Shown: in pieces, positions 1,785 to 61,859 of the stretch
Position numbering within the stretch: the stretch's first letter is position 1
How the letters are laid out: every line of letters begins with the position of its first letter
DNA from: Raja brachyura
Lineage: Eukaryota
Assembly: GCA_963514005.1 (NCBI GenBank)
Contig: OY740818.1
Location: 24,862,001-24,926,000, forward strand
Length of the DNA stretch: 64,000 nucleotides
Direction: 5' to 3'
Position numbers and translations under genes: made by a program
Notes under the pieces: model-generated
Seen by the model: the letters and a program-made list of their open reading frames with translations, nothing else
Told to the model about the DNA's origin: nothing
Database searches by the model: none

Positions 1785-2197
1785 ACAGACACAAAATGCT
1801 GGAGTAACTCAGCGGGTCAGCCATCATCTCTGGAGAGAAGGAACGGGTGATGTTTCGGGTCGAGACCCTTCTTCAGACTGAGAGTCAGTGGAAAGGGAAA
1901 CAAGAGATATAGACGGTGATGTAGAGAGATATAGAACAAATGAATGAAAGATATGCAAAAAAGTAACGATGATAAAGGAAACGGCCATGAGCTAGGTGAA
2001 AATGAGTCACAGCCAATGAGACTCAACAAAATGTTTTTGAAAGTAATATGATGGGTTGGGGAGGGACAGAGAGAGAGAGGGCGTACAGGGGTTATTTGAA
2101 GTTCGAGAAATCAAGATTCATGCCACTGCCCAAGCAGAATATGAGGTGCTGTTTGTCCAATTTGCGTTTGGTCTCACTCTGGCAATGGACCAGGCCA
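1785..2197 (-). mobile_element. Penelope-like element 3' end (GIY-YIG C-terminus + pLTR)
   Basis: minus translation GLVHCQSETKRKLDKQHLIFCLG-SGMNLDFSNFK*, followed by pLTR with hammerhead core. Confidence 0.8.
1849..1876 (-). ncRNA. minimal hammerhead ribozyme core in Penelope pLTR
   Basis: reverse complement CTGAAGA-A-GGGT CTCG ACCC-GAAA-CATC: CUGANGA, stem II, GAAA, NUH. Confidence 0.6.
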
Positions 2198-3674: not shown

Positions 3675-3940
3675 GTGGAAACAAGGAACTGCAGATGCTG
3701 GTTTATACCAAAGATAAACACAAAGTGCTGGAGTAATTCAGCCGGTCAGGCAGCATCTGTGGTGAACATGGATAGGTGACGTTTCACAGAGTGCTGGAGT
3801 AACTCAGCAGGTCAGGCAGCATCTGTGGAGAACATGGATAGGTGACGTTTCACAGAGTGCTGGAGTAACTCAGCGGGTCAGGCAGCATCTGTGGAGAACA
3901 TGGATAGGTGACGTTTCAGGTTGAGATCCTTTCTCAGACC
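3675..3940 (-). repeat. Penelope pLTR with internal 66-bp triplication
   Basis: GTGCTGGAGTAA..CAGGCAGCATCTGTGG.GAACATGGATAGGTGACGTTTCA starts at 3725, 3791 and 3857. Confidence 0.9.
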
Positions 3941-4379
3941 ATGTCTCTCCAAGATAATTAGCATAATTCAGATTAGATCCGTATTCAGACTCGGTTTTAT
4001 CAAGAGCTTGGTATTGTTCTAGTTTGCAGTTCATTGCCATATTTCCATATTAGATCAGACTATGCCTGACACAAACTTTCTTGCCACTTATAGTTTAAGT
4101 ACACAATGAGTTCTCTTGAATCACAGAGAAATTATTCATCTGTTGTTTTCTCAAATGGAAAAGAAACATTTTCCTTGCTCCTGTCAACTTGTCAATAGTC
4201 TTCAGGATAACACTGAGGGGGGAGTCAGTGTCTGAACATACTCTTCATTGAATAGTTAGCCCAGGAGACGAGCAAAAAAAATCCTATCTCTCCCGCAATT
4301 GAACTTGATCCTTCCAAACCTTAGCAATATTGAGGAGCTGACGTGTCTGTCTGTGCGTGGCGTCTGAGCTGTGTTTGAC

Positions 4380-4960
4380 ATTCTGTTAGTTAGTGCACAA
4401 TGGTGTGAATCTGAGGGCTTTAATTACAGCTAATGACTGATCAGGGGCACAATGCTGTTCCCAGCAATTAAAAACATTGGTGCAAATAGTTCATATAAAT
4501 TGAGCGGAAGGCTGGCTCTGCATCGACACGGGAAAATTCCCTCGTGAAAATCAGTGTTGTAAAGATGCAATTCCTTCAGAGTAGCTTCATAATTGTCTTC
4601 ATCGTTAATGGAATAAAGCGTGCAGTGTAGTTTGCCTTTGTACGGGCAAGCTGCATGAAGGCAACACTAGATTGTGGAGTAATGTACCTCAATTGTTTGG
4701 GAAGACAATCTAATAGATTTTGAATAATTAAAACAAATTGTTTGCTCTTTAAAGAGGAGAAGAAGAAGTTGTTAATGTCAGGTTGGTGGTAAAGCCTCAT
4801 CATCTCAGCTGGAGAGAGAAATTAGCTGCACAGCGCAATGTCCCAGAGGAGCAGACCACAAATTTGTTTGGAGCCTAGTGGAGATGAATCTTCTTGACAG
4901 ATCTTAAAGGAACAGTTAGGGGACAAATGAGTGATTATGATTAATCAGAGATCTTACCTC
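4380..4960. promoter_or_regulatory. candidate conserved non-coding element / enhancer
   Basis: TE-free unique island rich in TAATTA, ACAAT/ATTGT (Sox-type) and TGATTAAT motifs; no ORF of note. Confidence 0.3.
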
Positions 4961-4970
4961 TCACCTGTGA

Positions 4971-5272
4971 GGCAGGCACGGTGGGCAGCGGTAGAGTCAC
5001 TGCCTCACAGCGCCACAGACCAGGGTTCCATCCTGACTCCGAGTGCTGTCTGTACGTTCTCCCCGTGACCTGCGTGGGTTTTCTCATGGATCTCCGGATT
5101 CCTCCACACTCCAAGAATGTACAGGTTTGTAGGTTAATTGGCTTGGTGTGATTGTGAAATTGTCCCTAGTGTGTGTAGGATAGTGTTAGTGTGCGGGGAT
5201 CGCTGGTCGGTGCAGGCTCGGTGGGCCGAAGGGCCTGTATCTCTAAACTAAACGAAACTAAACTAAACTAAG
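4971..5272 (+). mobile_element. HE1/V-SINE-type SINE
   Basis: tRNA-like head (GGTGGGCAGCGGTAGAG, GGTTCCATCC B-box), V-domain, GGGCCGAAGGGCCTG stem-loop, (AAACT)n tail. Confidence 0.9.
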
Positions 5273-5314
5273 TGCAGACTGGTGCATGAGGCATCTGTGG
5301 TGTTGTGTGGCTGA

Positions 5315-5535
5315 GGGAGGATCAGGATGTATCACGGGTGCTCACCTCCTCACCATTGAAGGGATCTACAAGGGTCGCTGCCTCAAAAAGGCAGCCAGTT
5401 TCACCAGAGACCCTCACCACCCTGGCCATGCTCTCATCTCACTTCTCCCATCCGGAAGAAGGTACAGGAGTCTGAAAACTGTAACATCCAGGTTCAGGAG
5501 CACCTTCTTCCTAACTGCCATCTGTCTATGAAACA
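5315..5535 (+). mobile_element. Rex1/Babar-type LINE 3' fragment
   Basis: RCLKKAASFTRDPHHPGHALISLLPSGRRYRSLKTVTSRFRSTFF. Confidence 0.85.
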
Positions 5536-5555
5536 CTACGACTGCACCTACATGA

Positions 5556-5685
5556 TGGAGCAGAAAGCCCACGCGGTCATGGGGAGAACGTACTAACTCT
5601 GTACAGACAGCACCCGTAGTCAGGATGGAACCCGGGTCTGTGGCGCTGTGAGGCCGCAACTCTGCCGCTGCGCCACCGTGCTGCT
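5556..5685 (-). mobile_element. HE1/V-SINE 5' half
   Basis: reverse complement GCACGGTGGCGCAGCGGCAGAG...GGGTTCCATCCTGACTACGGGTGCTGTCTGTAC. Confidence 0.85.
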
Positions 5686-5804
5686 GCTCTTATTGAATCC
5701 AAAATCATTAAAAAATCAACTGTTAACTCCTCTGTGCGAGGAATATTTACACAAACCACAGGAAAACAGGTGGAAGAGTTACTGAGCAAAAGATGGTACA
5801 CTAC

Positions 5805-6028
5805 AGTCTGTGGAATTCTCTGCCTCAGACGGCGGTGGAGGCCGGTTCGCTGGTTACTTTAAAGAGTGAGCTAGATAGGGCTCTTAAAGATAGTGGAGTC
5901 AGGGGATATGGGGAGAAGGCAGGAACGGGGTAGTGATTGGGGATGATCAGCCATGATCACATTGAATGATGGTGCTGGCTCGAAGGGACGAATGGCCTCC
6001 TCCTGCACCTATTGTCCATTGTCTATTG
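5805..6028 (+). mobile_element. CR1-clade LINE 3' end
   Basis: SLWNSLPQTAVEA..FKSELDRALKDSGVRGYGEKAGTG*, conserved 3' UTR hairpin and (ATTGTCT)n tail. Confidence 0.9.
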
Positions 6029-6249
6029 TTTCTTGAGGTCCTCTGAGGGAGCGCTGTATGTATGTATCTATGTGTGTATTGTTAGATCTATGTACCACTG
6101 TTTGTAGCATGTTGGTACCTGCACTGATGTAAAGCACTTTGGTCAACGAGAGTTGTTTTTAAATATGCTATAGAAATAAAATGGACTTGACTTGACTATT
6201 GACAGGAGTGACAGAGGGCCGTTTGAGAGGCTCCAGGCTGTGGGAGATT

Positions 6250-6505
6250 CAATGTGACCAAAGAGATGGGTTTTAAAGAGTGCCTTGGTGAAAGGATAGT
6301 GAGGTTGTGGAGTGGAGAGGTCCAGAGGGAATCACAGACCTCCTGGCTCTGACAGTTGAAGACCCGACCACCAAGTCGTGGGGACAATTAAACTCAGGGA
6401 CGAGCAAGAGCCTGGAAGTGGAGAGGTTTTGGCAGATGGAATTGGATGAGAGGAGATTTGGCAAAGCCACGGTGGGATTAGAGAACAAGAGGGAGAATGT
6501 CAGCA
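6250..6505 (-). mobile_element. degraded L2-clade LINE 3' fragment
   Basis: minus translation resembles L2 C-terminus (SRLLLVPEFN..GGRVFNCQSQEVCDSL..PLHSTTSLS..LKTHLF). Confidence 0.55.
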
Positions 6506-6740
6506 TTTAAACAGGTAATAATGAATCCCACGCTCCCTGTGAAATTCCGGAGTGGCCTGGTCTAACAAACATTTACAGTATTTTATTCTGATTGATGACG
6601 TTCACCGCCAGGATCACAAAATTAAAATTGCTCCCCCCCAAGTGTGCGGCCCCCTAATAACATGCGAGGCAACACTCTGGGGCTATTCAATCTTTAGACA
6701 GGTGTGGGTTAGTAACTGTACAAAACAAAACATTCATCTT

Positions 6741-7060
6741 TTTAAGAAAGAACTGCAAAGATTTGAAAAAATCGTAGACAATAAATGCTGGAGAAACTCA
6801 GTGAGTGAGGCAGCATCTATCTCTCCCTCCTAACCCCATTCTCCTACCTTCTCTCCATAACAAAACAAGGACTGTGCCAAAGATGAATGTTTTGAAGGTA
6901 GCAAAAAATGCTGGAGAAACTCAGCGGGTGAGGCAGCATTTATGGAGAGAAGGAATCGGCGACATTTCGAGTCGAGACCCAGGGTCTCTCCATTCCTTCG
7001 CTCCATAGATGTTGCCTCACCCGCTGAGTTTCTCCAGCATTTTTTGTCTACCTTTAAAGC
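6741..7060. mobile_element. Penelope pLTR fragment plus inverted-pLTR hairpin insertion
   Basis: arms AAGGTAG.AAAAAATGCTGGAGAAACTCAGCGGGTGAGGCAGCAT and CCTCACCCGCTGAGTTTCTCCAGCATTTTTTGTCTACCTT; ATGAAT(G/C)TTTT on both flanks. Confidence 0.75.
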
Positions 7061-7562
7061 ATGAATCTTTTTGGGCCATTGGAATCTGGGCTTCAAGACG
7101 GATGGGGATTTAGTGCTAAGAAATAAATGATGTGAAATCTGAGAGATTATAGAAGCAGGAGCACTGATTGGAGTTGTGGATGTGGAGTGGGGAGCGGATC
7201 ATGGTCTGGCTGGGTGGTTGCTATTGCAGACTGACTGTCTGTTACTTGCTGCCAGACGGGGGCCAGTCGGCCTCAGATCCTTCCTCTCTGGTGTCTGGGG
7301 ATGAGGGGAGGGAGCACAGGCTTGGCATCTCGTGGTGCTTTTGTTTTCATGTATCCCAGCTGATCTGAGGCTGGGTCCCGACTGCCCGGCTCACACACAG
7401 TCACACAGTGTTAGCAGGCAGTACACAAGGAGGTGGTGCTGGAGGCAACTGACCCGGGGATACCCAGCCTCAGCCCACTGCTCCTCTGGTCTAAAGGTGG
7501 TCTGTACTTCAGCACACCCCTGCTGTTCATGCACCGGTCTAAATGTCTCCAGAACTTCGGCC

Positions 7563-7893
7563 TCAGTGGGAGAATCCACCAGCGGGAGAGGACAAGAGGC
7601 CACAGACTCAGAATTAAAGGATGTTCTTTTAGCAAGGAGATGAGGAGGAACTTCTTTCGTCAGAGGGTGGTGAATCTGTGGAACTCATTGCCACAGACAG
7701 CCGTGGAGGCCAAGTCAGTGGATATATTTAAGGCAGAGATAGATAGATTCTTGATTAGCATGGGTAGGGGGTTATGGGGAGAAGGCAGGCGAATGGGGTT
7801 AGGAGGGAGAGATAGATCAGCCATGATTGAAAGGCGGAGTAGACTAGATGGGCCGAATGGCCAAATTCAGCTCCTAGAACTCATGACCTTATG
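7563..7893 (+). mobile_element. CR1-clade LINE 3' end
   Basis: RTRGHRLRIKGCSFSKEMRRNFFRQRVVNLWNSLPQTAVEAKSVDIFKAEIDRFL. Confidence 0.9.
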
Positions 7894-7984
7894 ATCTGCT
7901 ATATCTGCACGCATTTTGTTTTTGGCCCAAGCCTCACTTTGTTACCACAGAGAAGATGGTAGGGCCAGTATCTTGGACATCATC

Positions 7985-8100
7985 CTCCCCCCCCCACACC
8001 CCCCACACCCCCCCCCCACACCCCCCCCCACACCCCCCACACCCCCACCCCCCACACCCCGACCCCCCCCCCCCCACCCCCGCACCCCCCACACACCCCC
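7985..8100. repeat. C-rich low-complexity tract (CnACA)n; G-quadruplex-prone on minus strand
   Basis: runs of up to ~14 C separated mostly by A/ACA. Confidence 0.9.
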
Positions 8101-8143
8101 GTGTCCATGCTCCAGTACTATGGTTGCTGTGGCGACCCAGTGC

Positions 8144-8292
8144 TTTTTAATTAAAATAAACTTTATTCAGAATAAAAAATATATACAAAACAAGGACTGT
8201 GCAAACGTTATTCTGACATTCTTGGAGGCTATGCAAACATTCACTAGCATTGTATCGTAGTGTTCTCAGAAATGTCATTATACCCGCCACAT
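8144..8292 (-). mobile_element. Tx1-like LINE 3' UTR remnant (second copy)
   Basis: colinear similarity to 8318-8467; ends GAATAAAGTTTATTTTAATTAAAAA on minus strand. Confidence 0.6.
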
Positions 8293-8304
8293 GATGAACC
8301 AGTA

Positions 8305-8930
8305 TTTTTTTGTTTATATTTTAATCAAAATAAACTTTAATCAGGATTTTAAAATATGTAAAAAACACGAATTGTGTAAAATTGTTCGGACATTTCCCGC
8401 TACTATACATACTGTCGTTAGCATTATATTTGGTAGTGTCCCCAAAAAACATGATTATACCCCCACCCTTGCCTCTCATGTGCCCCCCTGCGGTGATGTC
8501 CCTTCCCTCATTTGAGGGGTGTCTCCACCACACCCTGCCCCCCAATGCCCAGCAGCGGAAGGACCCTAGACTGTGGCCCTCCCCCACCGAGCCTTGGCGT
8601 TGGCTGCACCGAGCTTCAGTGCGTCCCTCAGCACGTACTCCTGCAGTCTGCAGCGGGCCAGTCGGCAACATTCCCCGATGGACATCTCGCTCCTGGTCAA
8701 CTATGCTCAGGCAGATCAAAGAGCATCTTTCACCGAGTTAGTGACCTTCCAGCAGCACCCGATGTCCGTCTCTGAGTGTGTCCCTGGGAACAGTCCGTAA
8801 ATCACAGAGTCCTCTGTGACGGAGCTGATCGGGATAAACTGTGACACGGACCCTTGCAGACCTCTCGAGACTCTCTTTGCAAATCTACACTCTACAAACA
8901 GGTGGCAACCGTCTCCTCTCCATCGCAGCA
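8305..8930 (-). mobile_element. Tx1-clade (L1-Tx1) non-LTR retrotransposon, 5'-truncated
   Basis: minus translation with stops/frameshifts: GEETV.HLFVECRFAKRV..VTEDSVIYGLFPGTHSETDIGCCWKVTNSVKDAL..ECCRLARCRLQEYVLRDALKLGAANAKARWGRATV* (stop at 8566-8568); zinc-knuckle-type C-terminus; A-rich tail. Confidence 0.8.
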
Positions 8931-9479
8931 GTTGCTGAAAAGCCCAGAGCAGGGGATGTGCTGAGCAATATCTCCATCACAGGCCCCAATAGTCCTGTCA
9001 TATCACCGTGTAAACCCCACAAGCCAAATAAACGGCTATTTCCTGCACTTATGGTCTATAATGTTGTACACAATGCTTACAAAGTGCTGCCCTCATCTCT
9101 GTCCTAGCCATTCATTCATTTCTTCACAGCCCCACAATTGTTCTACTCATGCAGGCTGTTCACAGCTGTGTAAAGTGTGTTAGTGTGAGGATGCAATCTC
9201 AATTACCAGAACATTGTTTCAACTCATGAGGTGCTGACAGATTAATGTTGAATTAAATGGATTCTTACTGAAGTTCTGGCTTTGAAAGCGGGTACTTAAT
9301 TCACAATAGAAATCAACTGATATTTCCAAATTTAAACCGAGACTCCACACTCACTGGGGTCATTTACTAAGTGTAGACCCTCAGGACACAGCCCTGCCAG
9401 CGGTACACACTTCATCTTCTTGTCATGACTGGGTTTATCCAGAGGACTTGACCGAGATCAGTCACCATAATCCCATCGC

Positions 9480-9584: not shown

Positions 9585-9790
9585 CCATCCTGTTACTCAC
9601 CATAATCATCGTTGCTTTTGACATTTCTTTCAATCATTTGTTCTATGTACCGTCTATATCTCTCCTTTCCCTCTCCCCTGACCCTCAATCTGAAGAAGGG
9701 TCTCGACCCGAAACATCACCGATTCCTTCTCTCCAGAGATGCTGCCTGTCCCGCTGAGTTACTCCAGCATTTTGCTTCTATCTTCTGGTG
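9585..9790 (+). mobile_element. Penelope pLTR
   Basis: same pLTR consensus as 1785-2000 in opposite orientation. Confidence 0.8.
9690..9717 (+). ncRNA. minimal hammerhead ribozyme core in Penelope pLTR
   Basis: CTGAAGAAGGGTCTCGACCCGAAACATC. Confidence 0.6.
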
Positions 9791-13640: not shown

Positions 13641-13855
13641 AAAATAAACACAAACTGCTGCAGTAACTCAACGGGACAGGCAGCATCGCTGGAGAGAAGA
13701 GATCGGTGACATTTCGGGTCGAGACCCTTCATCTGGAAGAAGGGTCTTGACCTGAAACATCACCCATTCCTTCTCTCCAGAAATGCTGCCTGAGTTACTT
13801 CAGCTTGTTATGTCTATCTTCGGTTTAAACCAGCATCTGCAGTTCCTTCCTGCAC
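13641..13855. mobile_element. fold-back (inverted) Penelope pLTR insertion with 10-bp TSD
   Basis: TSD ATATTTGGTG at 13631-13640 and 13856-13865; two inverted arms; ~35-nt unpaired tail on right arm. Confidence 0.85.
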
Positions 13856-14413: not shown

Positions 14414-14605
14414 AGGTAGACAAAAATGCTGGAGAAACTCAGCGGGTGAGGTAGCATCTATAGAGCGAAGGAATAGGTGACGTTTCAGGTCGAGATCCCA
14501 AATGTCACCTATTCCTTCACTCCATAGATGCTGCCTCACCTGCTGAGTTTCTCCAGCATTTTTGTCTACCTTCGATTTTTCCAGCATTTGCAGTTCTTTC
14601 TTAAA
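14414..14605. mobile_element. fold-back Penelope pLTR insertion
   Basis: near-perfect inverted arms; degenerate 15-bp TSD CTTCTCAAGCAGTGA (14399-14413) / CTTCTCAGTTAGTGA (14606-14620). Confidence 0.8.
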
Positions 14606-15536: not shown

Positions 15537-17214
15537 GGGTCAGGCAGCATCTCTGGAGAACATGGACAGATGACGTTTTGGATCAGGACCATTCATCCAT
15601 CTGCTATTTCCTGCAATGGATCTCAACTTTATTTTCCCGCTGAGTTACCCAGCACCTTAGGTCTTTTTTTTTGTAACCCAGCATCTGCAGTTCCTTGTCT
15701 CCACGTTACTCTCATAGGTGGAGGTTTACAAAAACCAGCATCACTGGGTTTCTTCTCAAACACGTGGCAGCTCCAGGGAGCGCAGGCTCTAAGTGACCAA
15801 TTAGCTGCTTCAGTGAGTGGCATTCCTTCCACATCAGCCTGGCGTGAGAAGTTGTTTACGGCCCAGGAGGTTAGTTGCTGCTTGTTCCAGGGCATGGAGC
15901 ATGGTCCCAGTAACAGATTGTGCACTAAAGATTTCCAGGTGCCTCTCTGTGTCCCAGAATAACTGAACCACATTCACCTCCACCGTCGCTGTGCTATAAA
16001 TGTGGTGGCAAGTTCAACACTTAATGTGTGTGACACATAATGAACTCTCATCAAAGATTAAACTCCAGTCTACTGCAAGCTGCATCCAATTATCCCTCTT
16101 TGCACACAGGTGCACCAAGACTTCTGGTGTAAGATTTGCATTCCAGTCGATGACTAGAATGAGGGGGGCATTGATTGGAATGTGAATTCATGTAGTTCAG
16201 AAGTTCATTAATCATAGGAGCGGAATTAGGCCATTCGGCCCATCGAGTCTACTCACCATTCAATCATGGCTGATCTAACATTTATGTTAGAGTATGAATG
16301 ATACGAGCGTACTACATGAATGGTAAGTCCCTGGGAACACTAATGAACAGAGGGACCGACACAAGAAGCCCCCTGGGTTGGTGGCCACCATTAGTCAGAG
16401 CATTGAATGGCCCCATAGCAGAAGCGTCCACATCGCGGGGTTGGGAACTGGAAGTATCCTGGGCTAATTCTGCTACCACCACCATCTACTGCAACAAGTG
16501 ACGGCTCCCACTGATTGTCGCCGGAAGCTTGCGTCCGTTTCAGGACGGACGGACGATGACAGCGATGTCAACATTTGTAACATGGAAGATGGACACGACA
16601 GAAGAAGAAGATGTATTGAATAACATGCATATTGGTACTGACATTGGCTATGTTTCCACACTGTATGACTCTGTCTAGATGCACGTACACACAATGTCAC
16701 AATGAATAAACATATCTGTCACCAGGCCTGAAAACAAAATAATGACATTTAACTTCTATCAGTATATATGTTTACAAGAAAACGCTTGCATTAACAATCA
16801 GCTTTTAAATTTAATGGCAATCACGTACTTTTAAACAGACAAGTATCATTAACACAGCACCATTTAACATGATAAAGCAAAATAAATTCACATCCATTCC
16901 TGAGAAGTTGTGATAAGTATCTGGGTATAAGTTGTGTTCAGTTGTGATATCTGCCCTGCATAATACACATATACTGCTGCAGCTGTAACGTGTTATCAGA
17001 AGTGACTTGTTTATCTTCAGTTACTGAATGTCATTGACATTTTGGGAGCATGAGTTTGTTTAACAGCAGCAAGCACTGAAATCTGTCCAAGGTTTTCTTG
17101 GAAGAAAAAGTCCAGACTTCAAATCATTTATATTCTGTGAGGAAGTGGGCAAAGGGTCAGCACGGTGTGATGGGCAGAAAGGCCCTTCTGTCTGCTGCAT
17201 GAATCTGTGACTAT

Positions 17215-18871: not shown

Positions 18872-19252
18872 TGTTTAAGGAAGAACTGCAGATGCTAGAA
18901 AAATCGAAGGTAGACAAAAATGCTGGAGAAACCCAACGGGTGAGGCGGCATCTACAGAGAGACGGAATAGGCAACGTTTCGGGTTGAGACCCTTCTTCAG
19001 ACATTTGGTCAGGTATGTGGATGGGACAGGTTTGGAGGGATTATGGACAAACTCAGGCAGGTGGGACTAGTGCAGATGGGGCATCTTGGTCCACATGGAC
19101 AAGTTGGGCCGAGGAATCTGTTTAGAAAGGAATTGCAGATGCCAGTTTATGCCGAGGATAGACACAAAAAGCTGGAATAACTCAGCGGGACAGGCAGCAT
19201 CCCTGAAGAGAAGGAATGGGCGACGTTTCAGGTCGTGACCCTTCTTCAGACC
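18872..19252 (-). mobile_element. two Penelope pLTR arms (18872-19002, 19124-19252) in a CR1 tail, each with a hammerhead core
   Basis: reverse complements CTGAAGAAGGGTCTCAACCCGAAACGTT (18973-19000) and CTGAAGAAGGGTCACGACCTGAAACGTC (19222-19249). Confidence 0.8.
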
Positions 19253-24986: not shown

Positions 24987-25317
24987 CGGGCCTGTCCTAC
25001 TTACGCAACTTATTTCGGCGACTGCCCGCACCCGCCATAGGTCGTTGCAGGTCGCTGACATTTTTTAACATGTTGAAAATGCAGCGGCGACCAGAACTAG
25101 GTACGGTTCTTTGGGCGACTACTCACGGCCGTACAGGCTTCATCCCGCGACATGTCGCCTGTATGGCCGTGAGTCGTCTCCTCAGTCGCCCAAAGAGTCG
25201 TAGCGTCTTTCTGGTCGACGCTGGATTTTCAACATGTTGAACATTTTCGGCGACCGGCAACGACCTATGACGGGTGCCGGCAGTCGCCGAGAAAGTCGCG
25301 TAAGTGGGACAGGCCCG
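24987..25317. mobile_element. PIF/Harbinger-type MITE, almost fully palindromic
   Basis: TIR CGGGCCTGTCCTACTTACGC / GCGTAAGTGGGACAGGCCCG; inverted symmetry extends to the centre (~25150); flanks TCA/TAA. Confidence 0.85.
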
Positions 25318-25350
25318 TAAGGAACAATAACAGGGGAACCGATTGAGTAA

Positions 25351-25626
25351 TAGCCCTGTCCCACGGTACGCGTTCATTCCAAGAGCTCTCCCGAGTTTAA
25401 AAAAATCAAACTCGTGGTAAGCACAGAAAATGAAGGTAGGGGGTACGTCGGAGCTCGGGGACGTCTCTTAGCGGCTCGTAACGCTAACGGCTGGTACTCG
25501 GGAAGACTCGCTAACAGCAGGTAAGCACGGGAAGACTCGTGAAGATTTTTCAACACGTTGAAAAATGTCCATGAGAGCAAACTCGGGAGAGCTCTTGGAA
25601 TGAACTCGTACCGTGGGACAGGGCTT
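25351..25626. mobile_element. PIF/Harbinger-type MITE
   Basis: ~47-bp TIR AGCCCTGTCCCACGGTACG.GTTCATTCCAAGAGCTCTCCCGAGTTT; flanks TAA/TTA. Confidence 0.85.
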
Positions 25627-26654
25627 TTAGAGTTAGGAACAAGAGTACAAAGCAGCAACTTCAGGAATAGGGTATAAAAGAGGTGATTGGTTCCTGAGAC
25701 GTCTGCAGTGGAGAAGAAACTGTTCTTAAGTCTGGATGTTCGAGTTTTCAGGCTCCTGAATCTTGAAACCTGAAATTTGTAGACTTTTCCAGGGAGTCTA
25801 AATAAAGGAAACATCGACATCTTGTAAATGTCTTCCACAGTAAACAGTAGTGACATTTTAAATAATCAAAATTACCAGGAATATTGGAGATGAAAGAACA
25901 ATCTGTAACAGAAAGCTGGCATGGAAACGCAGTCTCCGGAGCCAGTTCTGGTGGAGTTTGGCCCAGTCTCAACGGGAAGAGGTTGAGGAAGCAGATGCTG
26001 CTGAACGCTGGCAGTCCATGTCTTCAGCAGAGCTCCTCTTCCACAGACTGACTCACTCAACCCAACAGGGCGCCAATTGCTCTGCTCATCACAGTGCTTC
26101 CAGCTCATTCATGTCCTTCCCCTCAGGGGTTTGGAAACCACCCCCACATGGTAAATGGACTACACAGGTAGTGTGCCATCAGCTGCAAGGTCACGTCCTC
26201 AACATTCCCGTGTGCGGGGAAGGAATTGGCTTCAGTAGTGCTTGACGATGTCAGAACCTCTGGCTGGGAAGAGTGTTGGAATCAATGACGTATTTCCCCA
26301 ATTCTCACTGTTGTCCCTTGAGCAGAAGTGGGCATCTTTTGATTGTGATCTATTTTTATTTCTTAGAACGTTTCGGCCACAGTGTACATGATAAACAAGG
26401 TAAACACATCTCCTCTGCCTGCACGTGATCCATAGCCCTCCATTCCCTGCATATCTATTTGCCTGTCAAACCTGCCACAATCGAATCTGCCTCCACCACC
26501 GCCCCAGGCAGCTCGATCCAGGAATCACCACTCTCTATGTAACAAGACTTACTCCACATCTGTTGTAAACTTTGCCGCTCCCACCTGAAACCTATGCCCT
26601 CTAGTATTTGATTTTTCCATCTCAACGAATTGAAATTTCAGCACAGAGTTAAAC

Positions 26655-27112: not shown

Positions 27113-27342
27113 TTAGTTCAGTTTAGTTCAGAGATACAGCATGGAAACAGGCCCTTCAGCATGAAGATAGACACAAAGTGCTGGAGTAACTCAGCGGGAC
27201 AGGCAGCATCTCTGGAGAGAAGGAATGGGTGACGTTTCGGGTCGAGACCCTTCTTCAGACTAGCCATCGAGTCCGCGCCGACCAGCGATCCCCACACATT
27301 TGCACTATCCTACACACACTAGGGACAATTGACAATTTACCC
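27113..27342 (-). mobile_element. SINE 3' part interrupted by a young Penelope pLTR arm (~27161-27261)
   Basis: GGCCCTTCAGC...AGCCATCGAGTCCGCGCCGACC resumes across the insert. Confidence 0.8.
27231..27258 (-). ncRNA. minimal hammerhead ribozyme core (consensus-perfect)
   Basis: reverse complement CTGAAGAAGGGTCTCGACCCGAAACGTC. Confidence 0.65.
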
Positions 27343-38291: not shown

Positions 38292-39787
38292 AGGCGATCG
38301 AAGCCCCCGCAACGGGGCGACCGAAGCCCCCGCAACGGGGCGATCGAGGCTCCCGCAACGGGGCGATCGAAGCCCCCGCAACAGGGCGATCGAAGCCCCC
38401 GCAACGGGGCGATCGAGGCTCCCGCAACAGGGCGATCGAAGCCCCCGCAACAGGGCGATCGAGGCTCCCGCAACGGGGCGATCGAAGCCCCCGCAACAGG
38501 GCGATCGAAGCCCCCGCAACAGGGCGATCGAAGCCCCCGCAACGGGGCGATCGAGGCTCCCGTGATCAGGGCGATCGAAGCCCCCGCAACGGGGCGATCG
38601 AAGCCCCCGCAACGGGGCGATCGAAGCCCCCGCAAAGGGGCGATCGAAGCCACCGCAACGGGGCGATCGAGGCCCCCGCAACGGGGCGATCGAAGCCCCC
38701 GCAACGGGGCGATCGAAGCCCCCGCAACGGGGCGATCGAAGCCCCCGCAACGGGGCGATCGAAGCCCCCGCAACGGGGCGATCGAGGCTCCCGTGATCGG
38801 GGCGATCGAAGCCCCCGCAACGGGGCGATCGAGGCTCCAGTGATCGGGGCGATCGAGGCTCCCGTGATCAGGGCGATCGAGGCTCCCGTGATCAGGGCGA
38901 TCGAAGCCCCCGCAACGGGGCGATCGAGGCTCCCGTGATCGGGGTGATCGAAGCCCCCGCAACGGGGCGATCGAGGCTCCCGTGATCAGGGCGATCGAAG
39001 CCCCGCAACGGGGCGATCGAGGCTCCCGTGATTGGGGCGATCGAAGCCCCCGCAACGGGGCGATCGAGGCTCCCGTGATCAGGACGATCGAAGCCCCCGC
39101 AACGGGGTGATCGAGGCTCCCGTGATCGGGGCGATCGAAGCTCCTGCAACGGGGCGATCGAGGCTCCCGTGATCGGGGTGATCGAAGCCCCCGCAACGGG
39201 GCGATCGAGGCTCCCGTGATCGGGGCGATCAAAGCTCCTGCAACGGGGCGATCGAGGCTCCCGTGATCGGGGTGATCGAGGCTCCCATGATCAGGGCGAT
39301 CGAGGCTCCCGTGATCGGGGCGATCAAAGCTCCTGCAACGGGGTGATCGAAGCCCCCGCAACGGGGTGATCGAGGCTCCCGTGATCGGGGTGATCGAAGC
39401 TCCTGCAACGGGGTGATCGAGGCTCCCGTGATCGGGGCGATCGAAGCTCCTGCAACGGGGCGATCGAGGCTCCCGTGATCAGGGCGATCGAAGCCCCCGC
39501 AATGGGGTGATTGAGGCTCCCGTGATCGGGGTGATCGAAGCCCCCGCAACGGGGCGATCGAGGCTCCCGTGATCGGGGTGATCGAAGCCCCCGCAACGGG
39601 GCGATCGAGGCTCCCTTGATCGGGGTGATCGAAGCCCCCGCAACGGGGCGATCGAGGCTCCCGTGATCGGGGTGATCGAAGCCCCCGCAACGGGGTGATC
39701 GAGGCTCCCGTGATCGGGGCGATCGAAGCTCCTGCAACGGGGTGATCGAGGCTCCCGTGATCGGGGCGATTGAAGCTCCTGCAACAG
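38292..39787. repeat. CpG-rich minisatellite, 23/24-bp units, roughly 60-65 copies
   Basis: unit A GGGGCGATCGAAGCCCCCGCAAC (23 bp), unit B GGGGCGATCGAGGCTCCCGTGATC (24 bp). Confidence 0.97.
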
Positions 39788-42870: not shown

Positions 42871-43691
42871 GGCTTCACCTCTTGTGCCCCTCGCAGCAGG
42901 GGCTCTGTGGGTTTGCCGGGATCATTATTAGGGTGCTTCCTGCTGCCGGATAGCAAAGACACAACATCAAGCTATGAGACTAAAGTGTGAGAGGTTTTGC
43001 ATCAGGGCAGGCCAGAAGGGTTAACCCTTTTCCAGTCGTGTCTAATATAGATCCCCAAATCTCAAATAAATATGTCACGCACACCTTCAAACACCCTGAG
43101 TACTTTAGTTATTGTTATTTATGAGGTGGCTGATGGAATATATAGGTGTAAAGGATTCCTCAGTGTATACAGGCAGCATGTGTGAAATGCTGGCCTGGAG
43201 TGTACCTGCTGCCTGTCCCGGCCTTTCTCCTGCCCTCTCCCAGGGGGAAGTTGGGGATTTGTTACCTGGAAGCATCAAGAGGCAGGTGGGAGGTATCTTC
43301 ACAGAAGCTAAGTCTGCCGTCCAGCGAGATATCACTCGACTCAATTCAGAGGGACATGGACCAAACGCGGGCCGATGGGACTAGTTTAGATGGAGCATGT
43401 TGGTCGGCGTGGATCAGTTGGTCAACGTGCCTGTGTCTGTGCTGTGGGACTATGACTCCGTAGTTGGCACAGACTTTGTACCATAACTTGGTGCTCCTGT
43501 TCCAACCATGGCTGAGGGTCTCATCCTCCGACTGACCCCTGGGTTCAGTGACCACCCACCTTGAACAAAGCCTGCCAGGCTCCCTTTGGCCAATGTCAGC
43601 ATGTCCAAGGTGGCCACTAACGTTCCATCAACGGCAGGTTTGATTGTTGTTGGGAAAATATGCAGTTTGGAAAGAAGGAATTCCAGCAATG

Positions 43692-43880
43692 CAGACAAAA
43701 GTGCTGGAGAAACTCAGCGGGTGAGGCAGCATCTATGGAGCGAAGGAATAGGTGCCATTTTGGGTCTCGACCCGAAACATCTCCCATTCCTTCGCTCCAT
43801 AGATGCTGCCCCACCCGCTGAGTTTCTGCAGCATTTTTGTCTACCTTCGATTTTTCCAGCATCTGCAGTTCCTTCTTAAC
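43692..43880. mobile_element. fold-back Penelope pLTR insertion
   Basis: inverted arms with one-sided tail; AATTCCAGCA / AATCCCAACA flanks (degenerate TSD). Confidence 0.8.
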
Positions 43881-48029: not shown

Positions 48030-49400
48030 ACAGTGACACTTACAAACTTCTACAGATGCACCACAGAAAGCGTCATGTCAGATTGCATCACAGCTAGGTT
48101 TGGGAACAGCTCTGCCCAAGGCCACAAACAATTGCAGAGTTGTGTATGTAGCCCAGTCCATCGCACAGACCACACTCCCCACCATTGTAGATGTAGCCCA
48201 GTCCCACACAGACCACACTCCCCACCATTGTAGATGTGGCCCAGTGCCACACACACCACACTCCCCACCATTGTAGATGTAACCCAGCCCATCACACACA
48301 CCACACTCCCCACCATTGTAGATGTAACCCAGCCCATCACACACACCACACTCCCCACCATTGTAGATGTGGCCCAGTCCCACACACACCACACTCCCCA
48401 CCATTGTAGATGTAGCCCAGTCCCACACACACCACACTCCCCACCATTGTAGATGTAGCCCAGCCCCACACACACCACACTCCCCACCATTGTAGATGTG
48501 GCCCAGTCCCACACACACAGACCACACTCCCCACCATTGTAGATGTGGCCCAGTCCCACACACACCACACTCCCCACCATTGTGGATGTGGCCCAGTCCC
48601 ACACACACAGACCACACTCCCCACCATTGTAGATGTGGCCCAGTCCCACACAGTCCACACTCCCCACCATTGTAGATGTGGCCCAGTCCCACACACACCA
48701 CACTCCCCACCATTGTAGATGTAGCCCAGTCCCTCACAGACCACACTCCCCACCATTGTAGATGTGGCCCAGTCCCACACACACCACACTCCCCACCATT
48801 GTGGATGTGGCCCAGTCCCACACACACAGACCACACTCCCCACCATTGTAGATGTGGCCCAGTCCCACACACACCACACTCCCCACCATTGTAGATGTAG
48901 CCCAGTCCCACACACACCACACTCCCCACCATTGTAGATGTAGCCCAGTCCATCACACACACCACACTCCCCACCACTGACTCTATCTACACTTCACATT
49001 GCCTCGGCAAAGCAGCCGACATCATCAAAGACTTGTCCCACCCCGGTCATTCCTTCTTCTCCCTGCTTCCATCTAGCATAAGGTACAGAAGCTTGAAAGC
49101 GCGCACCACCAGACTCAGGAACAGCTGCTTCCCCTCTGTTATCAGGCTTCTGAACGATCCTTCCATAAGCCCGGGTACTGTCCGATTCACCTCTACCCCA
49201 TTGCGGACATTGGTCTTTGTCTCTGGAACTGATGCGCTACAATGCTGAGAACTATATTCTGCACTCTGTATCTTCCCCTTTGCTCTACCTGTTGTACTGG
49301 AGTTAGATTTGATCATATTTATGCATGGTATATCTGATCTGTTAAAGCGGGCAAACAAAGCTTGTCACTGTACCTCAGCACACGTGATAATGATAAACCT
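48030..49400 (+). mobile_element. Rex1/Babar-type LINE 3' part carrying an internal minisatellite
   Basis: LTNFYRCTTESVMSDCITARFGNSSAQ before the array and HPGHSFFSLLPSSIRYRSLKARTTRLRNSCFPSVIRLLN after it; 3' UTR and tail. Confidence 0.9.
48140..48979. repeat. minisatellite, 19 copies of a 43/45/47-bp unit
   Basis: TTGTAGATGT(A/G)GCCCAGTCCCACACACACCACACTCCCCACCA. Confidence 0.97.
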
Positions 49401-53419: not shown

Positions 53420-53965
53420 ATAGTCATAGAGTGATACAGTGTGGAAACAGGCCCTTCGGCCCAACTTGCCCACACCGGCCAACATGTCCCAGCTACACTA
53501 GTCCCTCCAGCCTGCGCTTGGATATCCCTCCAAACCTGTCCTATCTATGGTACACAAAATGCTGGAGAAACTCAGCGGGTGCAGCAGCATCTATGGAGCG
53601 AAGGAGATAGGCGACGTTACGGGCCGAAACCCTTCTTCAGACTGATAACAGACTCTGTCCTATCTATGTACCTGTCTAATTGTTTCTTAAACGATGGGAT
53701 AGTCCTAGCCTCAACTATCTCCTCTGGCAGCTTGTTCCACACACCCAGCACCCTTTGTGTGAAAAAGTTACCCCTATTAAATATTTTCCCCTTCATTTGA
53801 ACCTATGTCCTCTGGTCCTTGATTCCTCTACTCTGGGCATCGACCCGATCTATTTCTCTCATGGTTTTGTACTCCTCTATAAGATCTCCCCTCATCCTCC
53901 TGCGCTCCAAGGAATAGAGGCCCAGCCTGCTCAACCTCTCCCTATAGCTCACACCCTCTGGTCCT
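53420..53965 (-). mobile_element. CR1 3' fragment interrupted by a Penelope pLTR arm (~53551-53646)
   Basis: LPGPEGVSYRERLSRLGLYSLERRRMRGDLIEEYKTMR; CTGTCCTATCTATG duplicated on both sides of the pLTR. Confidence 0.85.
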
Positions 53966-56522: not shown

Positions 56523-57703
56523 ACAACGATTTCTCAGTTGGGTGACGGGCATGGTCTGAAGACAGAGGGAAAGGACAAAGAGATGATATAAACATTTATA
56601 CAAGCTGAACAAAAACAATGTTTTTCTCATTCCTTTGATATAATTTGTATTTTAAAAATAAGAAAATTACCATTGAACGGAAGTGACTCTCTGCTTAAAA
56701 TGTACACAAAAGGATGAACGTTGTTTGAACGATGCAGTGTGGAAGGAGGCCCTTCGGCCCAGTCTCCATCACCTGTTCATGCTAGCTCTATGCTAACCCA
56801 CTTTCTCACCCACTCCCTACACACTCGGGGCAATTTACAGAGGGCTGATTAACCTACAAACCCGCACGTCTTTGGGATGTGGGATTGCAACCTAGATCTG
56901 TGTCCCCTCTTCCCCATCTCTCTTTGCCTTGATTGTTTGAATACCTTGCATGCACTGTTCCCACACCAAACCCTTTTTCCCGAATCGTACATGGTATCCC
57001 GATTTCATTGATCTACTTTTAAAATCCACTCTGTATTTTTGAATAAGGGGTGACATAGAACTATATGGCACAAGAACAGGCCCTTCAGCCCACAATATCT
57101 CTTGCAAACATGATGTCAAGACCATCTCTTATCTGCCTGCACAGAATCCACACTCTGCCATTTCCCGCATATCCATGTGACTAACAATACATCTTTTAAA
57201 TGTCTCTAATGTATCTGCTTCAATCACCACCCCCTTACAGGTTCCAGGCACCCACCACTTTCTGTGTAAGAAAAAAACTTGCCCTGCACATCTCCTTTAA
57301 ACGTTGCCCCTCTCACCTTAAAGCTGTGCCCTGTTGCATTGGATTTTTCTGCCGTGGGAAAAAAGATTCTGACCATCTACCTTATCTAGGTATCTCATAA
57401 TTTTATATACCTCTACCAGGTTTCCCCACAACCTCTGGCCTTCCAGAGAACACAATCCAAGTCAGCCCACCCTCTCCCTGTGGCAGGTGCCTGCTAATCC
57501 TGGCAGCATTCTGGTAAATCTCCTCTCCTTTCCAAAACCTCCACATCCTTCCTGTAATGGAGGTTTTGACCAGAGGTTTTGACCAGTTCCTGTAGTGACC
57601 AGAACGTTGACCAGCGGCCAAACCAACGTCTTATGAAGGGTTACACAAAAAGCTGGAGAAACTCGGCAGGTGCAGAAGCATCTAAGGAGCGAAGGAGATA
57701 GGC

Positions 57704-57731
57704 GACGTTTCGGGTTGAGACCCTTCTTCAG
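57704..57731 (-). ncRNA. minimal hammerhead core (left arm)
   Basis: reverse complement CTGAAGAAGGGTCTCAACCCGAAACGTC. Confidence 0.6.
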
Positions 57732-57734
57732 AGT

Positions 57735-57762
57735 CTGAAGAAGGGTCTCGACCCGAAACGTC
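57735..57762 (+). ncRNA. minimal hammerhead core (right arm, consensus-perfect)
   Basis: CTGAAGAAGGGTCTCGACCCGAAACGTC. Confidence 0.65.
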
Positions 57763-58663
57763 GCCTATCTCCTTCGCTCCTTAGATGTTGCTGCACCCGC
57801 ACCTGCAGCTTTGTCTGACTGCACCGCCATGCTGGAAAGTTTCTCCAGCTTTTTGTGTAACCCTCGATTCTCCAGCATCTGCAGTTCCTTCTTTAACACA
57901 ATGTCTTATGAAGCTGCCTCCATGATTACCAGAGTTCACCTGCACTTCCAGACTTCATTGACGATCACTGTACTACAAGCAGGCTGACTGACTGGAGAAT
58001 GGCAAACGCCATCTCTCTTGGTCAACTCTCCAGCAAGTCCAGATAGCAGGAACTCTGCCTTATTTTCCCAAATCCCCAGTCAAAGATTAACATGAACCAG
58101 AAATTCAACTTGCAATCTATTGATTGCTGCAACTCACCGGCACCCCAGTGGTCTATGTTCTTATTGGGACTCTGGACATTGCCACTGCCTAAGGTGACCA
58201 AACATCATCAATCAGTGTTTAACTCGAGAGAGAGAGAGAGAGAGAAGTCAGCCACAACTAATATATGATACAACGCAAGGCCAGACGGTCTAATCTGTTT
58301 ACTCTCCAGATTATAATTGGGCATTTTATTACTTTCAAAGCAGTAATTGTGGCATTTTAAATGATGTACAGAAGTAATTACAAGTGTATTGAGATGTGTG
58401 GATTTATATAAAAAGCACAGAACATCATAGTGGCAATTGTTAGCTCGAGATATTTGTCCTTAGTGTGAAATTCTGGCCACACCGTTACAGGAAGGATGAG
58501 GATTTGGAGAGGTTGCTGACCGGGTTTACCAGAACACTGCCCAAATTACAGAGTTTTAGCAAAACGAGGTTGGGAAAACGTGGCTAGTTTCCTCTGTAGC
58601 GTCGGAGGCTGAGATACGGCAAGATAGACGGTTTTTAAATTAACAAGTGCAGAGTTAGGCTTA

Positions 58664-60459: not shown

Positions 60460-61859
60460 GACCCACATAGACATCAGGCAGAATTGAGCATGAGTCCCGT
60501 AGTCATGTGTGCAACAGCTTTGTCTGACTGCACCGCCATGCTGGAATTAGTTTAGTATAGTTTTTACTGTCACGTGTAACGAGGTAAGGTGCAAAGCCTT
60601 TTGTTGCGTGCTAACCAGTCAGTTAAAAGACTATAGAAACGTAGAAAATAGGTGCAGTAGAACGTCATTCGGCCCTTCGAGCCACCGCCATTCAATATGA
60701 TCATGACTGATCATCTACAATCAGTACCCCGTTCCTGCTTTCTCACCATATCCCTTGATTCCATTAGCCCTAAGAGCTGAATCGAACTCTCTCTTGAAAA
60801 CATTGTGATTACATACATACATGTTTACAATGAACCATCCACAGTGTACAGATACAGGATAAAGGGAATTACGTTTAGTGCAAGATACGGTTCAATAACG
60901 TCTAGTTAACGGCTGTTGAAGGTCTCCAATCTCGTGTGCTTCACGTATGGAGAATGCCCACCTTATTCGAGTACACACACCACCAGACCCTGAGCCAGCC
61001 AGAACCGCACCAGTTGAGTTTATTGTAAGATACAGCTGCAGTGAACATATTGCTTGCGATAGTGGAACAGGCAGATAGATTTAGACAACGCATAACACGC
61101 ATAAATTATACATAAATACTGCAAGACAGTAAAAAAACAAAAGACTGCAAAAAAACAAGACAGCACTGAACTAGAGGGAGAGGTTGGGCTGGCGAGGACT
61201 CTATGCCTTGGAGCGCAGGAAGCTGAGGGGTGATCTCATAGTGTGTACGACCATGAGGGGAATAGACAGGGTGAATGCACAGTATTTTATCCAGGGGAGG
61301 GAGATTGAGGACCAGAGGACATTAATGTAGTATAGTATATAATATGTCCATGTTAAATTCTATTGTCTGTTGTGTTCATTTTATTCGTATGGCTGTATGG
61401 CAACTGAAATCTCACTGTACCAATTGGTGCATGTGACAATAAATGTAACTTGAACTTGAATATACAGGATAGTATATAGTATAGTGTATGGCACAGTATG
61501 TAGTGTATAGCGTAGCGTATAATAGTGTTTGGTTTAGTTGGTGGAAAGATGCTATAGGAACCTGAGGGGCAACTGGAGGCCACAGAAGAGGAGTGTTGGG
61601 ATGGGACTGAGCTGGAGCAGGTGGTCTGCAGAGCTCGGATGGACAGAGCCCAGTAGCAGCAGAGCCATGGTCATGGAAAGCAGAGGGATGTTGTTCCAAT
61701 GACTCACGGAGATATATCATCAGGAAATGAACATGGAGCTGACAGACCGGTGAGTGTTTCCCGGTTTGTGGAGTTTACCCGGAGATTGAACATCCCGCCT
61801 GTAGCCCCTTGTCCACTGTCCCTCACTAACTGGCCCCCAGACCCCACCTCACTCCACGC

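What the first reader, a model, noticed from the sequence alone, without database searches (positions are those of the whole stretch)
57704..57762. Minimal hammerhead ribozyme cores scattered through the window in Penelope pLTRs, here as a back-to-back pair
Seen: CTGAAGA-A-GGGT(CTCG)ACCC-GAAA-CGTC is intact or nearly intact at 1849-1876(-), 9690-9717(+), 18973-19000(-), 19222-19249(-), 27231-27258(-), 57704-57731(-) and 57735-57762(+). About ten more copies are degenerate; one at 53613-53640 has a UUCG loop. Established: CUGANGA / stem II / GAAA / NUH is the hammerhead core, and Penelope-like elements carry minimal type I hammerheads whose short palindromic stem III (here ACGU) is thought to need dimerisation. 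An extra A between A9 and G10.1 is tolerated in some natural hammerheads. Inference: any transcript across this region could carry latent self-cleavage sites on both strands. Caveat: stem I here is only about 2 bp (GU/AC), so many copies may be inactive.
Basis: partly seen in the sequence, partly recalled or inferred. Interest (0 to 1): 0.7.

Follow-up and report, generated by a model that had tools for sequence, protein, structure and literature searches.

The report
Head-to-head Penelope stubs burying their hammerheads
This is a single small insertion made of two mirror-image end pieces of a very common jumping gene; each piece carries a known minimal self-cutting-RNA motif, but the two pieces are predicted to zip together and silence it, so the interest lies in what such pairs likely record about how the element copies itself into both ends of a cut.

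Summary
The motif is real: 10 near-exact copies in the window against 0 in shuffles and 50,608 exact copies in the genome. It is the pLTR hammerhead of a young Neptune-type Penelope-like element; I found an intact 3,965-bp master with RT and GIY-YIG. The pair at 57704-57762 is one insertion (57637-57899) with an 11-14 bp target duplication; 3,263 such pairs exist. The 'latent cleavage on both strands' reading fails here: either strand folds into a long hairpin that buries the core (about 58 kcal/mol), helix I is 2 bp, and opposite-strand cores cannot dimerise. Stem II does not covary within the family, but does against a second Penelope family in the genome. More telling: in 90 pairs the 35-bp tail is on one arm (72) or none (18), never both; in 8 of 26 young pairs neither arm contains the other; copies begin at the hammerhead's 5' edge, not at its cut site. 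Likely mechanism: both target strands prime reverse transcription at two fixed sites on uncut RNA that starts at the hammerhead. The scan noted this family, pairs and start site before on other DNA.

The parts
57625..57638 (+). Left target-site duplication (11 bp exact at 57628-57638; 14 bp with one C/T difference); last 2 nt shared with the end of the left arm
   Evidence: the 11-mer occurs only at 57628 and 57903 in the window
57637..57732 (-). Left arm: pLTR piece from position -1 (relative to C3) to +67 after the cut site; no tail; 4 differences from the master in 96 nt
57704..57731 (-). Minimal hammerhead core, one change in the stem II loop; predicted cut between 57704 and 57703
57732..57734 (.). 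Junction; A57732 serves both arms (1-nt overlap); the right arm begins at the element's A(-3), the inferred RNA start
   Evidence: start inferred
57732..57899 (+). Right arm: pLTR piece from -3 to about +102, with tail
57735..57762 (+). Minimal hammerhead core identical to the master; predicted cut after 57762
57799..57837 (+). 39 nt in place of 4 nt of the element; 57806-57837 is an exact copy of 60515-60546 (likely a later templated repair insert)
   Evidence: the 32-mer occurs at exactly these 2 places in the genome
57865..57899 (+). 35-bp PLE 'tail', present on this arm only
57900..57913 (+). Right target-site duplication
60515..60546 (+). Donor of the insert in the right arm, 2.7 kb away
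27231..27258 (-). Solo copy with an exact core (older subfamily)
18973..19249 (-). Two same-strand copies 249 nt apart that both pass the strict descriptor; the only place in the window where an intramolecular dimer is conceivable
   Evidence: dimer not tested

Best explanation
The pair is one insertion of a Neptune-type Penelope-like retrotransposon, two short head-to-head copies of its pLTR inside one target duplication, likely made by priming reverse transcription from both cut strands, and its two hammerhead cores are predicted to be inactive because the arms pair with each other. Steps: (1, shown) both arms match the pLTR of an intact RT/GIY-YIG master. (2, shown) copies end 3' at about +66 or +101 after the cut site, 35 nt apart, and head-to-head pairs use one end each. 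(3, inferred) the protein nicks both strands 11-15 bp apart and each nick primes cDNA at one of the two internal start sites, as shown in vitro for the anole element PAc. (4, inferred) the template is uncut and begins at A(-3), the 5' edge of the hammerhead, probably a capped transcription start, so priming in the 5' pLTR gives run-off cDNAs of about 95 and 130 nt. (5, inferred) the two cDNA ends are joined by microhomology at the small palindrome around C3. (6, predicted) in any read-through RNA the arms form a long duplex; the hammerhead matters, if at all, only in the master's RNA, as a dimer or with protein help.
For: Master: 3,965-bp unit repeated at 100% identity, 1,033-codon frame with RVT_1 and GIY-YIG hits (both below Pfam cut-off), DKG and CX4CxxC motifs; its pLTR matches both arms. 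TSD at the locus; shared word >=8 nt in the flanks of 44 of 93 pairs against 9 of 465 mismatched controls. After removing 3 duplicate rows, 72 of 90 pairs carry the tail on one arm, 18 on none, 0 on both (p=1.5e-7 for no two-tail pair). In 8 of 26 young pairs the tailed arm is the 5'-shorter one, so neither arm can be a DNA copy of the other; 6 of these 8 have a TSD; the reverse occurs once. Arms are from the same subfamily (87 of 613 diagnostic mismatches within 48 pairs, 2,866 of 5,972 between). 5' ends: 29 of 45 correctly anchored young copies end at -5..+2, 7 run further upstream, 9 end inside the core, 0 at the cut site (8 mis-anchored rows dropped from 53). Of 204 whole-core copies only 46 continue into the 3' UTR. 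Solo copies that begin with the element's AGT have G before it in 15 of 23 non-C cases (expected 0.27, p=1.4e-4), as a copied cap would give. Folding. Literature: PAc nicks and extends both strands, starts at two internal sites that define the tail, and uses uncut RNA (PMC11167929).
Against: No RNA ends were seen: only assembled contigs were available, so the start site and cap are indirect. 30 of 53 solo AGT copies still have the element's C at -4 and the ends spread over -5..+2, so the start is not one sharp base, or joining trims and extends it. The G excess is absent for copies beginning at -2 (9 of 24, p=0.25). One RNA versus two RNAs is not resolved; one pair (L212) has arms of different subfamilies. 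49 of 93 pairs show no TSD >=8 nt (mostly old). A few copies (about 7 of 465) begin at or next to the cut site, so rare cleavage is not excluded. Folding is thermodynamic prediction only. The sample is 96 stretches at round-number positions plus the window, not a random draw.
Confidence: 0.8

Rival explanations
1. The pair is a pair of latent, usable ribozymes that cut read-through transcripts on both strands.
For: Both cores pass a strict descriptor; PLE minimal hammerheads show low cleavage as dimers or trimers (PMC4209133) and PAc cleaves with protein help (PMC11167929).
Against: Core unpaired probability 0.006, ribozyme fold 56-58 kcal/mol above the hairpin on both strands and in nascent RNA; one sense core per strand; helix I 2 bp; a single min-HHR was inactive in vitro; no transcription shown.
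Confidence: 0.04
2. The inverted arm arises by self-priming or fold-back of one strand at the junction palindrome, and the one-sided tail by endonuclease resolution, as proposed for rotifer PLEs.
For: Junctions sit on a palindrome (27-nt perfect centre in many of the 50 listed pairs); 15 of 26 young pairs have arms of about equal 5' extent; self-priming is the published proposal (PMC3846280) and tail-by-resolution is stated in PMC8557442.
Against: 8 of 26 young pairs where neither arm contains the other; solo copies use the same two 3' ends; PAc starts at both tail boundaries in vitro.
Confidence: 0.12
3. The pile-up of 5' ends at -5..+2 comes from something other than a transcription start: a 3' splice site (pyrimidine tract then CAG at -4..-2), an RT stop, or microhomology bias at the palindrome.
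For: The upstream 3' UTR is pyrimidine-rich and ends in CAG; in Drosophila virilis Penelope an intron ends at the 5' end of helix I and the start lies 46 bp before that intron (PMC2377424).
Against: Solo copies show background base composition beyond about -7 and no shared upstream exon; TSDs abut or lie within about 15 nt of the end; G excess before A(-3).
Confidence: 0.3
4. The 28-nt core is kept as a promoter (initiator plus downstream element) or protein-binding signal and is no longer a ribozyme at all.
For: No stem II covariation within the family; even the master's 5' RNA prefers other folds by 8-10 kcal/mol; few copies start at the cut site; Penelope has an internal promoter with Inr and an ACGT-containing downstream element.
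Against: All catalytic positions, G10.1-C11.1, the extra A and the ACGU palindrome are free of subfamily-diagnostic change; a 32%-identical PLE family in the same genome has the same core with a fully paired helix I and III. The two roles can coexist.
Confidence: 0.25

Closest known systems
Minimal hammerheads (min-HHR) in pLTRs of metazoan Penelope-like elements (Cervera and de la Pena 2014, PMC4209133; parts 1-2 of 4 of the text read)
   Same: Conserved boxes, unpaired base between 9 and 10.1, G10.1-C11.1, palindromic 15.2-16.2 with no loop 3, location in a PLE pLTR, mostly solitary dispersed copies; that paper also saw dual motifs on opposite strands 100-700 bp apart.
   Different: Helix I is 2 bp (4-5 bp in the paper's schistosome families; 2 bp in its D. 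virilis variant), helix II 4 bp; copy number far higher (50,608 exact against 4,000-9,000 in coelacanth and Xenopus); cores here are 3 nt apart.
EN+ PLE insertions with an adjacent inverted 5'-truncated copy and a one-sided 30-40 bp tail (Craig et al. 2021, PMC8557442; Arkhipova et al. 2013, PMC3846280; passages read)
   Same: Head-to-head inverted pLTRs, palindromic junction, tail on one end, 8-15 bp TSD.
   Different: Here the whole insert is only the two pLTR stubs (263 bp); the tail is never on both arms in 90 pairs, and non-nested arms argue for two priming events rather than the self-priming proposed in PMC3846280.
PAc (Poseidon of Anolis carolinensis) in vitro (Frangieh et al. 2024, PMC11167929; parts 1-2 of 4 read)
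   Same: Two internal RT start sites downstream of the hammerhead that bound the tail; both strands nicked and extended; uncut RNA is the template.
   Different: Poseidon clade versus Neptune-type here; the ORF starts inside the PAc hammerhead, whereas here frames start after the tail; that paper saw no strand difference in start-site use, while genomic pairs here use one site per strand.
L1 twin priming (recalled, no call)
   Same: Both target strands prime cDNA, giving an inversion inside one TSD.
   Different: In L1 the two cDNAs cover adjacent parts of the RNA; here they overlap almost entirely.
Non-LTR retrozymes (bioRxiv 10.64898/2026.07.22.740005; part 1 of 5 and passages read)
   Same: PLE-derived non-coding repeats with type I hammerheads.
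   Different: Retrozymes are direct tandem repeats with a hammerhead in each unit; this is an inverted pair.

Membership tests
PLE minimal type I hammerhead | CUGANGA, GAAA and NUH boxes | tested here: met
   both cores
PLE minimal type I hammerhead | G10.1-C11.1 and an unpaired base between 9 and 10.1 | tested here: met
   features from PMC4209133
PLE minimal type I hammerhead | Palindromic 15.2-16.2, no helix III loop | tested here: met
   ACGU in both cores and the master
PLE minimal type I hammerhead | Helix I of 4-5 bp | tested here: not met
   2 bp (U-G or U-A, G-C), then A-C mismatch in 91 of 105 copies; a 2-bp helix I is described for D. virilis
PLE minimal type I hammerhead | Covariation in helix II | tested here: inconclusive
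   none in 338 copies of this family; three double changes against one other PLE family
PLE minimal type I hammerhead | Lies in the pLTR of a PLE | tested here: met
PLE minimal type I hammerhead | Self-cleavage as a dimer | not testable with these tools
   predicted blocked at this locus
Rfam hammerhead models | Hit to a hammerhead covariance model | tested here: not met
   the models also miss the canonical fold in L121/L126
EN+ Penelope-like element, Neptune/Nematis type | RT with DKG motif and C-terminal GIY-YIG in one frame | tested here: met
   (E 5e-4 and 1.4e-3, below curated cut-offs), for the motifs
EN+ Penelope-like element, Neptune/Nematis type | CX2-5CxxC linker before the endonuclease | tested here: met
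   CX4CxxC in the L142 translation; definition
EN+ Penelope-like element, Neptune/Nematis type | Tandem or inverted pLTRs, one-sided 30-40 bp tail, TSD | tested here: met
EN+ Penelope-like element, Neptune/Nematis type | Placement in the Neptune rather than Nematis clade by RT tree | not tested
   no reference PLE proteins were on hand
Non-LTR retrozyme | Direct tandem units each with a complete hammerhead | tested here: not met
   inverted pair; definition

The most novel reading that the evidence does not exclude
This Penelope-like element integrates by a coordinated two-ended reaction: a protein dimer nicks both strands and primes one strand at +66 and the other at +101 on a single uncut RNA whose capped 5' end is the edge of the hammerhead. 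The +101 cDNA must displace the first and often stops near +66 (arms of +52 to +75 onward in four young pairs). The hammerhead is then a dual promoter/ribozyme at the very start of the transcript, and the roughly one million stubs are a genome-wide record of the reaction.
Probability: 0.4. Interest if true: 0.6.

Novelty: new member of a known kind. Interest (0 to 1): 0.33.

Why it matters
As a ribozyme the locus is ordinary and probably silent. As a fossil of insertion it bears on an open question: how Penelope-like elements, the sister group of telomerase, make head-to-head ends and a one-sided tail. The strict one-tail rule and non-nested arms favour two-ended priming over the published self-priming idea, and give sharp predictions for the in vitro system that now exists. 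An intact, young master and a very large number of products make this genome a good place to test them. About a million copies, many as perfect inverted repeats, may also be a large source of double-stranded RNA and fragile DNA in this animal (inference).

Tried and rejected
Rfam scans found no hammerhead; uninformative because a canonical fold was missed too. MIR1507, MIR2118 and MIR5048 hits are these hairpins, below gathering score. The first GIY-YIG search returned mainly a different, subtelomeric PLE family, not the parent of this motif. A peak of 5' ends at G12, which might have shown RT stalling at stem II, is mostly a 66-bp tandem repeat and was dropped. The per-base conservation test (46 of 609 against 380 of 3,301, Fisher p=0.004; per-site p=0.36) used a noisy flank filter and I do not rely on it. 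The 5'-end histogram is capped at -5, so its -5/-4 bins include long copies and were not used as ends. Public runs were contigs only, RNA status a guess; they hold the repeat but cannot show starts, cleavage or expression; three runs held one near-identical contig each, which I do not interpret. A test for very short inverted arms beside solo copies gave 3 of 96 against 1 control: no general excess. Shared rare variants between arms were few (8 of 172 counts) and do not decide one RNA versus two. The Lunse et al. 2016 paper on PLE hammerhead dimers was not available; I saw only its title in a reference list. Searches found no paper stating one start site per strand or an RNA start at the hammerhead edge; the library is partial and supplements of PMC4209133 and PMC11167929 were not read and may list this motif.

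Full report
Observation. The 28-nt motif is present at every coordinate given (10 matches at up to 3 mismatches, none in 100 shuffles). It occurs exactly 50,608 times in the 2.7-Gb genome, the reversed control 0 times. A profile made only from the 68 nt downstream of the predicted cut finds 41 copies in the window and 421 in 1.024 Mb (96 ten-kb stretches plus the window), which extrapolates to about 1.1 million. Of 204 sampled copies with a whole core, 36 pass a strict descriptor; in the window 5 of 19.

What the repeat is. Long copies continue upstream into a pyrimidine-rich 3' UTR and a GIY-YIG frame. [quoted passage not shown] These are the marks of Neptune/Nematis-type EN+ Penelope-like elements (PMC8557442, passages); I did not build a tree. 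Both arms of the finding match this master's pLTR: 4 differences in 96 nt on the left; on the right 1 substitution and one insert.

Anatomy of the pair. The insert runs 57637-57899. It is flanked by an 11-bp direct repeat found only at 57628 and 57903 in the window, 14 bp with one mismatch. The left arm spans -1 (relative to C3) to +67 after the cut; the right arm -3 to +102, the extra 35 bp being the PLE tail. The arms share one base at 57732. The right arm carries 39 nt in place of 4; 32 of them are copied from 60515-60546 and occur nowhere else in the genome, which looks like a later templated repair. Such pairs are common: 3,263 sites have two exact 13-nt half-cores back to back within 15 nt, and 57 of 204 whole-core copies have an inverted partner. 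Long insertions with kilobases of ORF show the same layout (L144, L145, L149).

Can it cut? Both strands fold into a long hairpin (z about -24). Forcing the hammerhead costs 57.8 and 58.5 kcal/mol, and 56.2 for an RNA that ends 12 nt past the cut; the core is unpaired with probability 0.006. The antisense arm is always transcribed first. One sense core per strand cannot make the dimer that a loop-less helix III needs; single min-HHRs were inactive and dimers weak in vitro (PMC4209133). Helix I is 2 bp followed by an A-C mismatch (91 of 105 copies). Even the master's own 5' RNA prefers other folds by 8-10 kcal/mol, one of which pairs the CUGA box with the tail. No host gene was found in the window (92 of 114 frames of 95 codons or more scanned, none at cut-off; short exons would be missed).

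Is the motif a real hammerhead by descent? Within the family stem II shows only wobble changes and CpG decay. Subfamily-diagnostic sites avoid the core (1 of 22 non-CpG sites, in the loop, against 13 of 58 downstream; p=0.053, with the core pre-selected at up to 6 mismatches). Position 1.1 alternates A and G opposite U2.1. A second PLE family in this genome, 32% identical in protein, has a canonical type I hammerhead before its first frame: 8-bp helix I, the same extra A, G10.1-C11.1, three other helix II pairs all changed on both sides, and a 5-bp helix III (the MFE is the hammerhead, though not better than shuffles, z -0.7). That is two families only, but it supports a ribozyme origin.

What the pairs say about insertion. 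Young copies end 3' at about +62-68 or +99-103. In 93 head-to-head pairs, 90 after dropping three duplicates, 72 have the tail on one arm, 18 on none and none on both (p=1.5e-7 for the last). Flanks share a word of 8 nt or more in 44 of 93 pairs against 9 of 465 controls. Arms come from the same subfamily. In 8 of 26 young pairs the tailed arm is the 5'-shorter, so neither arm contains the other, and 6 of those have a TSD; the opposite case occurs once, 15 are about equal, 2 unclassed. A DNA fold-back of one cDNA, the self-priming idea of PMC3846280 (passages), does not give this. It fits PAc in vitro, which nicks and extends both strands, starts at two internal sites bounding the tail, is predicted to be a dimer, and uses uncut RNA (PMC11167929). 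Four short tailed arms stop at +52 to +75, near the other start site, a hint that both primings use one RNA; this is not shown.

Where the RNA begins. Of 45 correctly anchored young copies, 29 begin at -5..+2, none at the cut site. Only 46 of 204 whole-core copies continue into the 3' UTR; in solo copies the match fades from 0.73 at -1 to background by about -7. Solo copies starting with the element's AGT have a G in front in 15 of 23 informative cases (p=1.4e-4), as a reverse-transcribed cap would leave; copies starting at -2 do not (9 of 24). The sequence there resembles an initiator (recalled), and D. virilis Penelope has an internal promoter (PMC2377424, passages). I put about 0.6 on a transcription start at A(-3). 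About 7 of 465 copies start at or beside the cut site, no clear peak, so rare cleavage is neither shown nor excluded. RNA data could not test this: only contigs were served.

Comparison and verdict. It works like, and is, a PLE pLTR stub pair with a minimal hammerhead; all structural features are described (PMC4209133, PMC8557442, PMC3846280). It is not a retrozyme. New here at most is the genomic evidence for one start site per strand and for a transcript that begins at the hammerhead; searches did not find this in print, within a partial library and without supplements. The scan's own notes on other pieces of this genome report the family, the pairs and the start-site idea; I had noted twin priming and the 5' pile-up before reading them, and they are not independent support. 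Interest 0.33; new member of a known kind.

Noticed in passing
window 16409-16474 (+), element to about 16612: HDV-like ribozyme that scores over the Rfam cut-off for the mammalian CPEB3 ribozyme (39 bits, cut-off 35). It heads a roughly 200-bp repeat with a GAA tail (2,591 candidates). In 20 copies the element starts at G1, P1 (6 bp, G1-U), P1.1, P2 and P3 pair, and the catalytic C is invariant. An earlier scan note links such elements to Vingi LINEs; I did not test that.
   Followed up: partly
L121, L126 (G000:C8, C15 ends) and about 100 further GIY-YIG hits: A second intact PLE family in arrays near contig ends: 602-codon frame with a weak GDSL/SGNH hydrolase hit, 760-codon RT/GIY-YIG frame, a canonical monomeric type I hammerhead before the first frame, and a 3' end joined to reverse-complement telomeric repeats in L121. 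An endonuclease-bearing PLE tied to telomeres may deserve its own look.
   Followed up: partly
L123 (G000:C41:5212001-5222000): 2,757-bp perfect tandem of the second family's RT/EN frame without its hammerhead or most of the first frame.
   Followed up: no
L141-L143 (G000:C18:46.36-46.38 Mb): Tandem array of full-length, 100% identical 3,965-bp masters of this family; first frame overlaps the RT frame, so a frameshift may join them.
   Followed up: partly
window 3719-3918; also L070, L201: 66-bp tandem repeat of the segment from G12 to about +58, found at independent loci; a core-less stutter that seems to have spread.
   Followed up: no
window 6902-7053, 13643-13820, 14414-14571, 43690-43846: Four older head-to-head pairs of the same family; their junctions fall in stem II or the core, and they cause the plant and bird microRNA hits in Rfam.
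   Followed up: yes
window 38293-39785 and 48146-48976: GC-rich 23/47-bp minisatellite (about 64 units) and a 43-bp minisatellite (about 19 units).
   Followed up: no
window 25015-25290, 25348-25629: Inverted-repeat elements with 51-82 nt arms, MITE-like, unrelated to the hammerhead family.
   Followed up: no
master pLTR, +20 to +101 after the cut (L142): Predicted helix with an inner hairpin whose blocks are as conserved as the ribozyme core; the two 3' ends lie in its internal loop and just past its base, so it may be the protein-binding and RT start signal.
   Followed up: no
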